From assembly GCF_003334355.1 (NCBI RefSeq), contig NZ_QOWP01000002.1: a stretch of 64,000 nt of DNA. One strand, written 5' to 3'. How positions within the stretch are numbered: position 1 is the stretch's first letter; each line of letters starts with the position of its first letter. The DNA is from Escherichia coli (lineage in GTDB: Bacteria; Pseudomonadota; Gammaproteobacteria; Enterobacterales; Enterobacteriaceae). Position numbers: made by a program. Below, piece after piece: positions 58,101 through 64,000 of this stretch.

Positions 58101-61100
58101 TAATAGTTATTGACGTCAGAAACGACGGCCTTACCAAACATATTGGTATAAACAGCTGCCCCGTTACCTTCCACCGGAACATCGGCAACGCCATCGGCAT
58201 CAATCAACAAGCGTGTCCCGCCCATATTCTGGGTACGGTGAAGTGCGCCACCGTGGGCAGTAAGCGTTGCGCCGCCCTGTAACGACAAGCCCGCAGAGGT
58301 GTATTGCCCTTCATGGTAGTTCGCGCTGAGGTCAACCTGCGCCAGCGAACCATCATGGCTGTAATAGCCGTCAACGCTGGTGTGTTTGTCACTGGTGCCG
58401 ACGTTCAACTGATAGTGAGTCGCGTCATCGACACGGCTAAAATAACCGACCTGGCTGCTGTCCGTCCCACTGCCATAGTTGCCGTTATAGCTAACGGTAC
58501 TGTTGTCGCCCCACGGCATACTGAGCGAAATGTACATGCCTTTGTCGGCCTGGTTGTCATACTCGTAACGGTAGCCAGTCATCGAGATGCTGACATTACG
58601 AATACTGCCCATATTGAAATAGTGCGAGAGCATGATGTTGTAGTTTGTCTGCTCCTCGCGATCCCAGTAGGTATGGCGGGTATAGTTGAGATAAACCGAA
58701 ACACCCGCATCGCGGAAGTTCTGGTTATAAGTGGCGGTGTACATCTCTTTGTCGTTGCCCGTGCGTACCATTCCGCTGTCACTGGCATCCAGATACTCGC
58801 TCATGGTCATAAAGTTCTCTTCCGAGAAGCGATATCCAGCAAAAGTAACGCGGCTGTTGAGCTGGTCAAAGTCTTTGGAATAACTCACACGGAAGGAGTT
58901 ACCGTCCAGCGAACCTTTGCCATAAGCGGTGTCTTTATCCAGTTTGGTGTGCGAGTGAGTAACATCAAACGCGACCGCGCCGAATGTAGACAAATCGCGA
59001 CCGACGCCAAGCGCCGCAGACTGATAGTTTTCATCTCCCAGTGCGCCGCCATATAACGACCAGCCGTTAGCGATCCCCCAGGAAGCTTCAGCACCAGAAA
59101 AAAATTCACCCTCGACATGGTGTCCCCACTCTTGCGGACGGCCCATCATGATCTTATAGCGAACCTGACCTGGACGAGTGAGGTATGGCATCGAGGCGGT
59201 GCTGATGTCATATTCCTGCACCTGGCCGTTCTGTTCTTCAATGCGAATATGCAACGTACCGGAGACAGAATCACCAAGATCCTGAATACGAAACGGTCCA
59301 GCCGGAACCTGCGTTTCGTAAATCACACGCCCCATCTGGCTGACGGTCACTTTTGCTGTGGTGTGTGCCACGCCGGAAATGTCTGGCGCGTAGCCGCGCA
59401 GATTGGGAGGCAACATTTGATCGTCAGTACTGACACTGCCACCAACATAGTTAAAACCATCAAAAATATCGGATCTGAGGTAATCCTCGCCCAGCGCCAG
59501 TTTGGCTTTTAATGATGGTAACGCCCGCCAGGCATAGTAGCGACTCCACTCCCATTTTTTTTGAGTTTCATCGCCGCTGAATTCATCGTCATCATTACTG
59601 CGAGTATGTTGATAGTTAGTCTGCCAGTCAGCACGCATACGCCACGGCCCCAGGTTAACCCCGACCGTCCCGTTGCCGCTGATCTCGTTACTATCATCAC
59701 CGCCATTTTCTTCGTGCCGGGTTTGTGCGTTGATGCTGTAGTCCGCGACGATCCCGGAGATGCCGTCATCCCAACGTGAAGGCGGATCCCAGTCGGGATA
59801 AGTATATTCGAGGTAAGCCTGTGGCAGTGAAATGACTAATGCGGACTGGCTTAAATCAGCCTTAATTTCCACGCCTTCCAGTTGACCGGATTTCAGGCAT
59901 TTAGCATCGTGGCTCCATTGCAGATTTTTCGCCACGTCTTCTTTTAAACCAAACTGCGCTACCAGTTCCGGTGTCAGACAAGCATAGCTTTTGCTCGCGT
60001 CATCTTCACCAGCATACCAGTAAATATCGTACTCTTCCGCCAATGGCTGTTTATTTAGTTGAACCTGTAAATTGTATTTTCCGGGCTCAACATATCCCTG
60101 GCTGGAAAAACGCTTCAGATCAATTTTTGTGTCGCCTTTTAATTCCAGAAAACGGGAATCAAACTGAATGTCGTCTTCAGCCCAGACACTGCTATAACTC
60201 CCTGACATTGCCAGCGCAATGCACCACGGAAGAATCCGTAATCGAAAAAGAGAATGGTCAGGCATACACGTTTCTATCCGTTTTTATTCTTGTTCGGTCA
60301 AAATCCATTTAAATCCCCCATAGCAGTGTCGCTATGGGGGTATGCCTTACAGGTAAGTAATCTGGAAGGTGGTATTTGCTTCGAAATTACCCAGATCTGG
60401 GGCATCAGCTGCGCCGACCAGCCAGGCTTTAAAGTTCAGTGTCTGCTTCGCTTTGCCTTTATTGGTAGAAGTGTCTTTCACTATTTTCTGGTCAATACCC
60501 ATGCCGCTTTTGTAAGAGGTACCCAGAGAGTCACCGATCGCCAGGCTAACATTGTTAAATGCCGCACCGGTATCGGTATTGAAAATGGTGTAATAATTGC
60601 CGCTATTTGCAGAAGAAACGGTACCAGTAAAGGTAGTGGTCATTGTTTCCTGAGTATCAAATACGCAATCTTGCAGACGAATCTGGAAACTTTTCGGCGT
60701 GGTGGTGCCGTTATTTTTCAGTTTTTCGGCACCGATATCACCCATATCAACTTCCAGTTTGTGATCGTCCGGGACGATAGAACACACTGAGTCTTCAATG
60801 GTGCCGTAAAAACGTGCAGTACCGTTGTTACCCGCAGCGATTGTTGCTGTAGAGGTGAACGCGCCCATCACCATTGCCGCAGCAATAGCTGTTTTAACAA
60901 ACTTACTCATTATTTGTCCTTAAACTATAAATAATTAAAAATATAAACATTGCAATACATTGATTCAGTCAATAGCCAATGTTTATACCCAGCCATTGAA
61001 TACGGCATGCGATCCAAAAAGAACAGGTCGTAGAAAATTGTATTCGTTGGTGTGGGGCCGCATAGTGATGTTTCCACACCCCTGATGCAATTTAATTTTA

Positions 61101-64000
61101 CTAAAGAGTAAATGTAGATTTAATTAATATATTGACAGAAGAAAGGTTATCTTAAGGACATCCTTAAAAAATACGGAATAAGTATTTAGAAAAAAATAGA
61201 AAGTATATCAATAATGAATATCAACAGCTTAAAAAACAAACAATGAACATATAATGCGATTGGCATTTATCCACTTTTGACAATATAATATATAAACACT
61301 ATAGCCAGAATTTAATCAAGTTTCAATTACATCCTGCCTGATTATTCAACTCTATTTTCTCTATTATCTGTATTAATAAATGACAATGAGTGTCAAACAG
61401 ACATTATTCATTTCAACATGTTACTTTGGGCAAAATCAAGATACGCGCAGAAAAATAATTTCCGAATGAAATTAGAAAGTGTTTTATTTATATATGGGGA
61501 GAGTCTTCGATAGTAGTGAGGTTGACAGATATCCGCTGCCTGATGAGCAATTATGCCCAATGAATCTACCTCATTGGGCATAATTTGGAACTCATCAGAT
61601 AGCTTTTGCCATCTTCAGATTACACGGGCTCATCTGCCAGTTGAATGTGCCGTTTCCGCTTTCATCAAGCGTTACGCTGGCAATGGCCGAGGTGGTAAAC
61701 ATAGGCGGCGTTTCGCCCGGACATAACTCGGCAACCAGATACCCGACTAACGGTAAGTGAGAGATCACCAGTACCGAAGCAACACCTTCATTGGTCAACG
61801 CCTGCAAATAGGCACTGACCAGACCAACATCGCCGCAGGGCGTTAACTCCGGCAGAACTTCTGCACTGGAAGGCAGGTTCAGACAATCCCCTACTTCTTC
61901 CAGTGTTTGCTCGGCTCGCAGGAACGGGCTCACCAGAACGCGTTCGATTTCCACTTTTTGACCTTTCAGCCAGTTCGCCATCAGGCGAGATTCGTCACAA
62001 CCATTAGTGGTCAGAGGACGAACCGAATCACTGGCGGCATCGAGGGCTGCGTCGCCGTGACGCATGATAAAAACTTGCATATTGCACCGCTTTTGTTAAC
62101 CAGATTCGCCCATTTTCTTTCATCTGAAACCAGAGAAAGAAAACGGTGGCCGGCATTGTGCCTTATCCATTCACCGAATGAAACGCTGTTTTTTACCTCA
62201 ATGGCGTAAGTATAGTCAATATGCGTTTACATTTTGACCAACACTCCGCCATTCAGCGCGGATTCATATAGCTTTGACCTTCTTATTGCAGGTCAGTTGC
62301 AGTTGTTTTCCAAAAACTTTCCCCACGCGCGCCCATCTCGACCAAACGCTCGCAAGGGGTAAAACGGGAACCATACTGCGTGGCCAGTCGTTGCATTATT
62401 GCAACCACTTCGCCCGCGCCGAGAGAATCGATATAGCGGAACGGTCCACCGAGAAATGGCGGAAAACCAATGCCAAATACCGCACCAATATCCCCGTCAC
62501 GCACGCTACGGATAACCTGCTCATCAACACAACGTACTGCTTCATTCAGCATCAACATCACACACCGTTCAGCAACCTGCGGTGCGGAGAGTCGCCCCTG
62601 CCCTTGTGCGCCAATGAGCGGGTAAATGGCAGGATCGACCTGTTTTTTGCTTTTACGCCCTTTCTGACCATAAAGATAGAAACCCCGACCATTTTTTCTG
62701 CCTTTGCGATCGTCGTTCAAAATTGAAGAAACAACATTTGCAGGCGCGCTAAAACGTTCTCCATAAGTGGCTTCCAGTACAGGAATAATTTTAGTCCCGG
62801 TGTCGATTCCTACCTCATCCAAAAGTTGGATTGGGCCTACCGGAAAACCAAATTTCACTAGCGCAGCATCAATGTGCTCTACCCGTTCACCTTCGGTCAG
62901 CATGCGGATAGCTTCATTAATGTAAGGCGCTAAGATGCGATTGACGTAAAACCCGGCTTTGTCACGCACGACAATGGGAGTTTTGCCCTGTTTTTTCGCC
63001 AGTTTTACCGTAGTGGCGATGGTTTGCGCCGATGTACCCGCATGAGGAATAATCTCTACCAGCGGCATTTTTTCCACCGGACTGAAGAAATGCAGGCCAA
63101 TAACTTGCTCAGGTCGCGCGGCGTGAGCGGCGATATCACCAATCGGTAAAGATGACGTGTTCGAAGCAAAAATGGTATGAGCGGCGCAATTTTGCTCCAC
63201 TTCCGCCACCATCTGTTGTTTTAATTCGAGATTTTCAAACACCGCTTCAATAATCAGATCGCGATGGGCAAAGCCGCGATAGTCCGTCGTTCCGGAGATT
63301 AATGCCAGCTGTTTGTCACGTTCGCTGGCTTTGAGATGACGACGGCGAACTTTGCCCTCCAGCTGATCCCAACTGTACTTCAGCGCATGATTTATGCCCT
63401 GCGGGTTGATATCTTTAATTCTGACCGGAAGCCCCGCTTTACAAGCAGTGACATAAGCAATACCGCCGCCCATCAAGCCACCACCTAAAATCCCCACGCT
63501 GTTTAATGGCGCAGGCGGCGCATCACTGCCGGGATCTTTCTTCACGTCCGTACTGGCAAAAAAGATACTACGCAGAGCCTGCGATTGCGGCGTCATCGCC
63601 AGTTCGCCAAACGCCCGTGCTTCAGCGTCATAGCCACTGCTGGTGCCCTGCGCTAATCCCGTTTCGACAACCTCCAGGATGCGTTCTGTCGCCGGATAGT
63701 TACCTTGAGTTTTGTGTTCTGTTTTCTTGCCGACCATTTTGAACAGCAACGCACGACCTAACGGCCCCGCCAGAATACGCTCGCGTACAGGTAGAGGGCG
63801 GGAAGATGGACGATCCTGCTTTACCAGCTCAACAGCGGCTTCCAGCAAAATGGAGTGCGGAACGACGTCATCCACCAGCCCCAGCTTTAACGCCTGTTTC
63901 GCCCGAAGTTGTTTTCCGGTGAGGATCATCTCTAATGCTGTGCTGACGCCTATGAGACGCGGTAAACGCTGGGTGCCGCCTGAACCGGGTAACAATCCAA

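What the first reader, a model, noticed from the sequence alone, without database searches (positions are those of the whole stretch)
60911..61539. 630-bp AT-rich silencing-type region upstream of yfcV with an embedded GC-rich inverted repeat
This is the most AT-rich stretch in the window, a composition typical of H-NS nucleation sites at cryptic fimbrial operons. Inside it, near 61049-61080, sits a GC-rich inverted repeat (ggtgtgg ... ccacacc, about 18-nt spacer) that stands out against the AT background. It could be a regulator-binding site or a structured RNA leader element.
Basis: seen in the sequence. Interest (0 to 1): 0.35.

Follow-up and report, generated by a model that had tools for sequence, protein, structure and literature searches.

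The report
Silenced yfc fimbrial promoter region
This is the AT-rich, H-NS-silenced control region in front of the cryptic E. coli yfc fimbrial operon, already described in K-12, and the small GC-rich inverted repeat inside it is a strain-lineage accident, not a conserved element.

Summary
The window is E. coli. The finding covers most of the 684-bp spacer (60911-61594) between yfcV, the first gene of the yfc chaperone-usher fimbrial operon, and sixA.

The spacer is 31% GC against 52% for the window, the lowest stretch in it. GGTGTGG (61049-61055) and CCACACC (61074-61080) form a perfect 7-bp inverted repeat with an 18-nt loop.

The silencing reading is correct but already published for K-12. 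The yfcV/sixA spacer is listed as an H-NS-bound "promoter island" and as an RpoD/RpoS SELEX site with an H-NS site.

The inverted repeat is not a conserved element:
- Its right arm varies (CCACACC, TCACACC, TCACCCC, TCACTCC) among >97%-identical alleles and is absent from the other allele classes.
- The exact perfect-repeat segment occurs in about 16% of complete E. coli genomes.
- The yfcV-sense hairpin is no more stable than shuffled sequence.

What is conserved is the left arm. It lies in Box A (61040-61056), which is complementary to a second conserved Box B (60988-61003). This box pair holds across Escherichia and Pseudocitrobacter. I could not tell whether it is an RNA stem or a pair of protein sites. 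It is the only modestly new lead.

The parts
60911..61594 (.). yfcV-sixA intergenic spacer: AT-rich (31% GC), dense in promoter-like sites, the H-NS-bound regulatory region of the yfc fimbrial operon
   Evidence: for composition and gene borders; 5 promoter-like sites, the maximum for any 684-bp window. PMC3661553 and PMC3946193 for H-NS and RNAP binding in K-12.
61049..61055 (+). This arm is conserved and lies inside Box A.
   Evidence: I14; invariant or near-invariant across allele classes.
61074..61080 (+). It is polymorphic and specific to one lineage.
   Evidence: CCACACC, TCACACC, TCACCCC, TCACTCC, and absent in other alleles; block conservation 0.62, at background level.
61040..61056 (-). 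Box A (yfcV-sense CCCACACCAACGAATAC; consensus CaCrCCAAAGAATAt), a conserved upstream box about 137-151 nt before the ATG
   Evidence: its core 10-nt block (61050-61041) scores 0.95.
60988..61003 (-). Box B (yfcV-sense GTATTCAATGGCTGGG), a conserved box complementary to Box A, about 91-110 nt before the ATG
   Evidence: (I8); its core 10-nt block (61000-60991) scores 0.92; duplex energies.
60982..60987 (-). Conserved -10-like TATAAA immediately 3' of Box B. It has no matching -35, and promoter function is untested.
   Evidence: It was not called as a promoter by the scan.
61298..61326 (-). Distal sigma-70 promoter-like site TTGAAA-17-TATAGT, identical to the published constitutive yfcV promoter of K-12. 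It would give a 5' UTR of about 380 nt containing both boxes and the inverted repeat.
   Evidence: PMC3946193, Table 2.
60347..60910 (-). yfcV, major fimbrial subunit gene (187 aa)
   Evidence: ORF; RefSeq annotation; PF00419 homologues.
61595..62080 (-). sixA (phosphohistidine phosphatase), the upstream neighbour. Its stop codon marks the far border of the spacer.
61535..61603 (-). Long hairpin spanning the sixA stop codon (61595-61597) and the adjacent end of the spacer. It has a 15-bp perfect core at 61549-61563 / 61571-61585 and is terminator-like but lacks a U-run.
   Evidence: I1, I4.: -40.6 kcal/mol, z = -7.2.
60942..60987 (-). 11-bp perfect inverted repeat with a nested 5-bp repeat, lying between TATAAA and the ribosome-binding site. 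It is specific to some allele classes.
   Evidence: I3.: -14.6 kcal/mol, z = -1.9..

Best explanation
The region is the long, AT-rich regulatory spacer of the cryptic yfc (yfcV-first) chaperone-usher fimbrial operon of E. coli.

Its composition makes it rich in promoter-like sites that RNA polymerase can bind. This is shown in K-12 and reproduced here at the sequence level. The same composition makes it a preferred H-NS binding tract, which is shown in K-12 and inferred for this strain. H-NS polymerising over it keeps the operon off under laboratory conditions.

The GC-rich inverted repeat is not a functional unit. Its left arm is part of a conserved upstream box (Box A). Its right arm lies in a freely drifting segment that, in one E. 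coli lineage only, happens to have become complementary to Box A.

Box A and a second conserved box (Box B) about 36-44 nt closer to yfcV are complementary to each other. Together they are the real conserved cis-element here. It acts most likely in the 5' leader or the promoter-proximal DNA of yfcV, by a mechanism that is still open.
For: Identity of the locus:
- RefSeq annotates the locus as yfcV and sixA in thousands of genomes.

Composition and promoter-like density:
-.

Published binding data for the K-12 orthologue:
- Promoter island plus H-NS ChIP-chip (PMC3661553).
- RpoD SELEX peak, an H-NS site and TTGAAA-17-TATAGT (PMC3946193). The same hexamers are found in the window.
- RpoS SELEX peak (PMC5493296).
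- Cryptic and H-NS-repressed status of these fimbriae (PMC3559732).
- AT-richness (28-32.5% GC) holds in every allele class and genus, even where the sequence is unalignable.

The inverted repeat is not conserved:
- Alignments A1, A2 and A6.
- Genome counts: 873 exact of 950 hits for the perfect repeat, against 918, 1223, 426 and 574 hits for four other alleles.
- The yfcV-sense hairpin has z = -1.06.

Box A and Box B are conserved:
- Conservation peaks of 0.95 and 0.92 against about 0.6 background over 16 upstream regions that average 58% pairwise identity.
- 86% of cells are paired, against 24-38% when the partner columns are slid.
- Duplex energies of -12 to -16 kcal/mol in most E. coli alleles, against -3.7 +/- 2.5 for control segment pairs.
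Against: - H-NS occupancy was not measured in this strain, whose spacer is only 94.4% identical to K-12.
- My own rough wedge-model curvature calculation shows no exceptional static bend in the spacer: 12.1 degrees mean against 10.3-11.9 in flanking genes.
- Matches to the 10-bp high-affinity H-NS motif are few (2 at up to 2 mismatches).
- The perfect repeat needed two substitutions, both toward complementarity. It is fixed in about 870 genomes, so lineage-specific selection cannot be excluded.
- On the plus strand, antisense to yfcV, the repeat plus flanking complementarity folds well (-22.6 kcal/mol, z = -3.6).
Confidence: 0.8

Rival explanations
1. The GGTGTGG/CCACACC repeat is a functional element in this lineage. 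It would act as an RNA hairpin in a long yfcV 5' UTR that competes with Box A:Box B pairing, so that one fold excludes the other.
For: - If transcription starts at the published distal promoter (61326..61298; PMC3946193), the repeat is transcribed.
- In the full-UTR fold of the window allele the repeat forms and Box A:Box B does not.
- In the K-12, O157-type, B2-type and N96-type alleles the local minimum-energy fold is Box A:Box B.
- Both substitutions that created the repeat increase complementarity.
Against: - There is no covariation. The left arm is invariant while the right arm takes four states, including the intermediate TCACACC.
- The hairpin has z = -1.06 on the yfcV-sense strand.
- An 18-nt loop closed by a 7-bp stem is weak.
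- No experimental transcription start site is available.
Confidence: 0.07
2. The repeat is a palindromic operator for a dimeric transcription factor.
For: It is a perfect 7-bp dyad in otherwise AT-rich DNA, which is rare in composition-matched shuffles (0.9%).
Against: - An 18-bp gap between half-sites is atypical.
- One half-site is lost in about 84% of E. coli genomes and in all other species sampled.
- A conserved operator would keep both halves.
Confidence: 0.04
3. The conserved Box A/Box B pair, which includes the repeat's left arm, is a pair of inverted protein-binding sites on DNA at a proximal promoter. The conserved TATAAA at 60982-60987 would be the -10 element. On this view it is not an RNA stem.
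For: - The primary sequence of both cores is almost invariant (CCAAAGAATA and TATTCRATGG), which is more than pairing alone requires (5 of 13 pairs never vary).
- The central AA/AA positions are consistently non-complementary.
- Local RNA folds are not more stable than shuffles (z = +0.1 to -1.7).
- A conserved -10-like TATAAA abuts Box B.
Against: - Box spacing varies (25, 35-39 and 44 nt), so the sites are not helically phased.
- Substitutions inside the inner stem are mostly wobble-compatible on the yfcV-sense strand (UA to UG in 5 sequences, GC to GU in 1, AU to GU in 1).
- The outermost pair shows four pair types.
- No -35 element sits at the right distance from TATAAA, and the scan calls no promoter there.
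Confidence: 0.35
4. The plus-strand hairpin (61035-61093) terminates or stabilises a transcript antisense to yfcV.
For: The plus-strand fold is -22.6 kcal/mol with z = -3.6 and is followed by a U-rich AAUUUUAC.
Against: - The terminator scan did not call it.
- There is no gene or promoter-like site upstream on that strand in the scanned stretch (60700-61800).
- The outer stem is broken in K-12 and ATCC 8739 (GATGCAATTT becomes GATTCAATTT, plus a deletion).
Confidence: 0.03

Closest known systems
H-NS-silenced promoter regions of cryptic E. coli chaperone-usher fimbrial operons (yad, yeh, sfm, ybg, ecp/mat, fim), including the K-12 yfcV/sixA 'promoter island' (Panyukov and Ozoline 2013)
   Same: It is the same locus and gene order as K-12. 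It is a long AT-rich spacer with the highest density of promoter-like hexamer pairs in the window. It has the identical TTGAAA-17-TATAGT promoter. The K-12 orthologue is bound by H-NS and by RpoD/RpoS holoenzyme.
   Different: This strain's allele is 94.4% identical to K-12 over the spacer, and its usher gene yfcU is intact where K-12 has a pseudogene. Unlike fim, pap or ecp, no regulator gene or switch is linked to the operon.
fimS-type invertible promoter switch
   Same: It is a fimbrial promoter region containing inverted repeats, and a 7-mer TGGGGCC resembles the fimS repeat TTGGGGCCA (the fimS sequence is from memory).
   Different: The arms are 18 nt apart, not about 300 bp. There is no significant long-range inverted repeat in the spacer and no recombinase gene next to it. 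The TGGGGCC is not conserved even in K-12 (TGGGGTC).
pap-type Dam/Lrp phase-variation region
   Same: It is a long regulatory region upstream of a fimbrial major-subunit gene.
   Different: There is only one GATC in the whole spacer (61011), and it is lost in several alleles. There are no papI/papB-like genes.
Intrinsic terminators and REP-type palindromes
   Same: It is a GC-rich short palindrome in an intergenic region.
   Different: The scan makes no terminator call and there is no U-run on the yfcV-sense strand. The sequence is single-copy per genome (places per genome: median 1, highest 1). There is no Rfam match.

Membership tests
H-NS-bound AT-rich silencing region / promoter island | AT content far above the genome average over several hundred bp | tested here: met
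   69% AT over 684 bp against 48% for the window; the lowest-GC stretch in the window.
H-NS-bound AT-rich silencing region / promoter island | Unusually high density of overlapping promoter-like sites on both strands | tested here: met
   5 sites in the spacer (7.3/kb) against 0.66/kb window-wide, the maximum for any 684-bp window. The count is not above composition-matched shuffles (5 against 4.1), so the density follows from composition.
H-NS-bound AT-rich silencing region / promoter island | Physical H-NS occupancy and derepression in an hns mutant | not testable with these tools
   Reported for the K-12 orthologue only: ChIP-chip summarised in PMC3661553 and genomic SELEX in PMC3946193. 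The Korea 2010 paper could not be read.
H-NS-bound AT-rich silencing region / promoter island | Intrinsic DNA curvature or high-affinity nucleation motif | tested here: inconclusive
   My own wedge-model script gives 12.1 degrees mean against 10.3-11.9 in flanking genes. There are two matches to TCGATAAATT at up to 2 mismatches, 2.9/kb against 1.0/kb.
   The right arm takes four states within one allele class and is absent in four other classes and in other species. The left arm does not change in step. 873 of 5426 genomes carry the exact form.
   z = -1.06 on the yfcV-sense strand; 31 of 200 shuffles fold at least as well.
fimS-like invertible element | Inverted repeats flanking a promoter segment of a few hundred bp, plus an adjacent recombinase | tested here: not met
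   Long-range 9-mer inverted repeats are no more frequent than in shuffles (3 against 2.5). The neighbours are yfcU and sixA.
pap-like Dam/Lrp switch | Two GATC sites about 100 bp apart within Lrp sites | tested here: not met
   A single GATC at 61011.
Rfam RNA families | Covariance-model match at or near the gathering score | tested here: not met
   Only three chance-level hits (E of 2 or more, bit scores far below gathering) in 60300-62300.
Upstream ORF / leader peptide across Box A-Box B (50-aa ORF 60925..61077, minus strand) | Reading frame preserved among alleles | tested here: not met
   The distance between the boxes is 25, 35, 36, 37, 38, 39 or 44 nt, covering all residues mod 3. K-12 has 1-nt indels.

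The most novel reading that the evidence does not exclude
Box A (61040-61056) and Box B (60988-61003) form an undescribed, conserved bipartite cis-regulatory element of yfc-type fimbrial operons. It would be either a leader-RNA stem or a pair of inverted protein sites.

The element travels with the operon across Escherichia and Pseudocitrobacter, with possible counterparts in Citrobacter and Enterobacter operons that sit in different genomic contexts. It could be the handle by which this otherwise H-NS-silenced operon is specifically switched on.

Probability: 0.4. Interest if true: 0.35.

Novelty: already known. Interest (0 to 1): 0.15.

Why it matters
yfcV is widely used as a marker gene for uropathogenic E. 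coli, and the yfc operon is one of the core "cryptic" fimbriae whose natural inducing signal is unknown.

The AT-rich silenced region adds nothing new. The result is still useful because it removes a false lead (the GC-rich inverted repeat). It points instead to two short, strongly conserved and mutually complementary boxes as the place to look for specific control of yfc expression.

The spacer is also an example of composition being conserved while sequence is not. It is 28-32.5% GC in every allele class, although the distal part is unalignable between classes.

Tried and rejected
- Rfam scan of 60300-62300 at E up to 10 gave only chance hits.
- The terminator scan made no call at the inverted repeat.
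- fimS-like switch: no long-range inverted repeats above chance and no recombinase nearby.
- pap-like Dam/Lrp switch: a single GATC.
- REP or MITE-like repeat: single copy per genome, and no second copy of either box in the window.
- Leader peptide across the boxes: the frame is not preserved.
- Static curvature with my own wedge-model script showed no signal. The script is unvalidated, so I treat this as inconclusive.
- Transcription start site data: the supplements of Singh et al. 2014 are not held, and Korea et al. 2010 is not held. No experimental start site for yfcV was found.
- Known binding-site consensuses (sigma-54, CRP, IHF, Lrp, RcsB-box), recalled from memory, were compared by eye with the GC-rich patch and Box A. 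Only a partial resemblance of Box A (AAGAATAT) to the left half of the RcsAB box turned up. The right half is not conserved, so I make no claim.
- More distant homologous operons (Klebsiella spallanzanii L020, metagenomic L029-L031) showed no convincing Box A/B counterparts.
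Full report
**Locus.** The window is Escherichia coli, not K-12. The 801-bp query around the finding matches 4204 of 5426 complete E. coli genomes, always on the chromosome. It is 94.4% identical to MG1655. On the minus strand the genes run fadJ (62283..), sixA (61595-62080), a 684-bp spacer (60911-61594), yfcV (60347-60910) and the usher yfcU (57623-60265). yfcV is therefore the first gene of the yfc chaperone-usher fimbrial operon, and the finding covers most of its upstream spacer.

**Observation.** Both parts are true.
- The finding's interval is 30.2% GC and the full spacer 31.0%, against 52.0% for the window. No other 629-bp stretch is lower; the runner-up is 34.8% near 11991.
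- GGTGTGG (61049-61055) and CCACACC (61074-61080) are perfectly complementary with an 18-nt gap (I14). They sit in a 40-bp patch of 53% GC.
- A GC-rich 7-mer repeat of this kind appears in only 0.9% of dinucleotide shuffles of the spacer. Across the window it is an ordinary event, at 0.84 per kb.
- The tool lists 17 inverted repeats for 60800-61700. Two are far stronger: a 15-bp perfect repeat next to the sixA stop, and an 11-bp perfect repeat near the yfcV ribosome-binding site.

**The AT-rich, silencing reading.** This is right, and it is already in the literature for the K-12 orthologue.
- Panyukov and Ozoline list "yfcV(-)/sixA(-)" as a 489-bp promoter island and mark it as H-NS-bound in the Kahramanoglou and Oshima ChIP-chip data (PMC3661553, Table 1).
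- Shimada et al. list an RpoD-holoenzyme SELEX peak in the yfcV/sixA spacer, flag an H-NS site there, and give the promoter TTGAAA-17-TATAGT (PMC3946193, Table 2). The promoter scan finds exactly these hexamers on the minus strand of the window at 61326..61298.
- An RpoS SELEX peak is also reported there (PMC5493296).
- Wurpel et al., citing Korea et al. 2010, describe CU fimbriae of commensal E. coli as cryptic and H-NS-repressed. They describe yfc as functional but cryptic and as a core-associated operon (PMC3559732).
- Overproducing BolA or TosR raises yfcV transcript.

My own checks agree.
- The spacer holds 5 promoter-like hexamer pairs, the maximum for any 684-bp window here (7.3/kb against 0.66/kb). 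This is not more than composition-matched shuffles give, so the density is a consequence of AT-richness.
- TpA steps are 2.5-fold enriched.
- The upstream region is 28-32.5% GC in every allele class and genus examined, even where sequences no longer align. Composition, not sequence, is what is kept.
- A home-made wedge-model curvature profile showed nothing special. I treat that as inconclusive.
- H-NS occupancy in this particular strain is inferred, not shown.

**The inverted repeat.** I aligned the spacer from ten E. coli genomes chosen across the identity range, and then added three near-identical alleles.
- The left arm GGTGTGG is unchanged in the window, K-12 and O157-type alleles. It changes by one or two bases in the more distant alleles (SCU105, strain 64.1, N96).
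- The right arm varies. It is CCACACC in the window, NDM1, ATCC 8739 and NCCP 13963; TCACACC in RM9088; TCACCCC in EH031, A17 and 2017.06.05CC; and TCACTCC in K-12 and Escherichia sp. MOD1.
- No counterpart exists in the O157-type (strain 110), B2-type (SCU105, 64.1) or N96-type alleles.
- Position 61078 alone takes three states among alleles that are >97% identical. No compensating change occurs in the left arm.
- 70-nt queries centred on the repeat give these genome counts:

| Allele | Genomes matched | Exact matches |
|---|---|---|
| Window (perfect repeat) | 950 | 873 |
| EH031-type | 918 | 854 |
| K-12-type | 1223 | 1071 |
| O157-type | 426 | 380 |
| SCU105-type | 574 | 227 |

- The perfect repeat is therefore a minority allele, in about 16% of genomes.
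- On the yfcV-sense RNA the hairpin gives -13.4 kcal/mol with z = -1.06.
- On the opposite strand the repeat plus flanking complementarity folds better (z = -3.6). That outer stem is itself broken in K-12 and ATCC 8739, and nothing upstream on that strand would be terminated by it.
- The sequence is single-copy per genome, has no Rfam match and gets no terminator call.
- I conclude that the repeat is a real but lineage-specific coincidence.

**Why the patch stands out.** I collected yfcV-type loci from other Escherichia species, Pseudocitrobacter and metagenomes and aligned the upstream regions in yfcV-sense orientation.
- Two short islands of conservation emerge from a background of about 58% pairwise identity. 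Box A is CCCACACCAAAGAATA(T) (window 61040-61056). Box B is (G)TATTCAATGGCTGGG (window 60988-61003).
- Box A's core 10-nt block scores 0.95 and Box B's 0.92.
- The two boxes are complementary to each other: CCCA/TGGG, CCA/TGG and GAATAC/GTATTC, with two small internal loops. The repeat finder reports part of this as I8.
- RNAalifold pairs the boxes on a 12-sequence alignment.
- On 18 distinct sequences the named structure has 86% of cells paired, against 24-38% for slid partners. Its covariation score of 0.137 was reached by 0 of 500 shuffles (shuffled mean 0.091).
- 5 of the 13 pairs never vary, and clear both-sided changes are confined to the outer stem: four pair types at the outermost pair and three at the next.
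- Box-to-box duplex energies are -12 to -16 kcal/mol in most E. coli alleles, against -3.7 +/- 2.5 for control segment pairs. They are only -6.6 to -7.9 in one E. albertii locus (L023), in L028, and in the two sspB-context (Pseudocitrobacter-type) loci L025 and L027.
- Local folds adopt the pairing in the K-12, O157-type, B2-type and N96-type alleles, but with unremarkable z-scores (-0.2 to -1.7).
- The distance between the boxes varies (25, 35-39 and 44 nt). That argues against helically phased protein sites and against a coding frame.
- The near-invariance of both core sequences, the consistently unpaired central AA/AA, and a conserved TATAAA directly after Box B argue instead for recognition of DNA sequence.
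- Citrobacter and Enterobacter operons with only 38-41% YfcV identity, sitting in different genomic contexts, carry what look like equivalent complementary boxes (GCCCGCCAAAATAATAT and AATTATTAATGGCG). More distant loci do not.
- I cannot decide between an RNA stem and paired protein sites with these tools.

**Comparison with known systems.**
- The region is a member of the known class of H-NS-bound, promoter-dense AT-rich spacers in front of cryptic fimbrial operons, and its K-12 orthologue is explicitly catalogued.
- It is not a fimS-type switch. There is no long-range repeat above chance and no recombinase.
- It is not a pap-type Dam/Lrp switch. There is a single GATC.
- It is not a terminator, a REP element or an Rfam family.

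**Verdict.** The silencing-type region is correct and already known. The inverted repeat is not a functional unit. The only modestly new item is the conserved, mutually complementary Box A/Box B pair, which deserves a reporter test. Overall interest is low.

Noticed in passing
window 61535-61603 (core 61549-61563 / 61571-61585): A very stable hairpin spans the sixA stop codon and the end of the spacer (15-bp perfect core inside a 13-bp outer stem; -40.6 kcal/mol, z = -7.2). It has no U-run on the sixA strand. Other allele classes carry a different GC-rich hairpin at the same place, in the O157 type followed by a T-run. It is probably the sixA terminator or transcript-end structure.
   Followed up: partly
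L004 (strain EC09), mapping to window ~61556-61566; also H22: IS1 is inserted in the yfcV-sixA spacer in at least two sequenced strains. In EC09 it sits inside the loop of the sixA hairpin, and EC09 also has a second IS1 truncating the usher gene. Whether such insertions relieve silencing, as at bgl, was not examined.
   Followed up: partly
window 60911-61594 compared with L001-L003, L009, L010, L022-L028: The spacer exists in at least five allele classes. They align only in the roughly 200 bp next to yfcV and become unalignable further upstream. sixA stays nearly identical and YfcV itself ranges from 65 to 98% identity within Escherichia. The divergence begins at about the sixA stop codon.
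   Followed up: partly
window 60942-60987: An 11-bp perfect inverted repeat (TATAAACATTG / CAATGTTTATA) with a nested ATTGA/TCAAT repeat lies between the conserved TATAAA and the yfcV ribosome-binding site. It is kept in the window and K-12 alleles, imperfect in the O157-type allele (one arm altered), and replaced in the others. The fold has z = -1.9.
   Followed up: partly
window 61260-61289 (+ strand): The best sigma-70-like match in the spacer (TTGGCA-18-TATAAT, 11 of 12) points away from yfcV, toward and antisense to sixA.
   Followed up: no
window 57623-60265: The usher gene yfcU is an intact 880-aa ORF in this strain, whereas RefSeq marks it as a pseudogene with an internal stop in K-12 MG1655.
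   Followed up: no
window ~10200-10800, ~12000-12900, ~18300-18900: Three further AT-rich islands (GC 35-41% in 600-bp windows) lie elsewhere in the window. I did not examine them.
   Followed up: no
L015 (Stappia sp. contig, 428 bp) and L016 (Collinsella MAG contig, 2180 bp): Contigs filed under unrelated taxa carry E. coli-type yfcV sequence. L015 is 99% identical at the protein level, and L016 matches the E. coli SCU105 allele in the Box A-Box B segment compared. These are most likely contamination or mis-binning in those assemblies.
   Followed up: no
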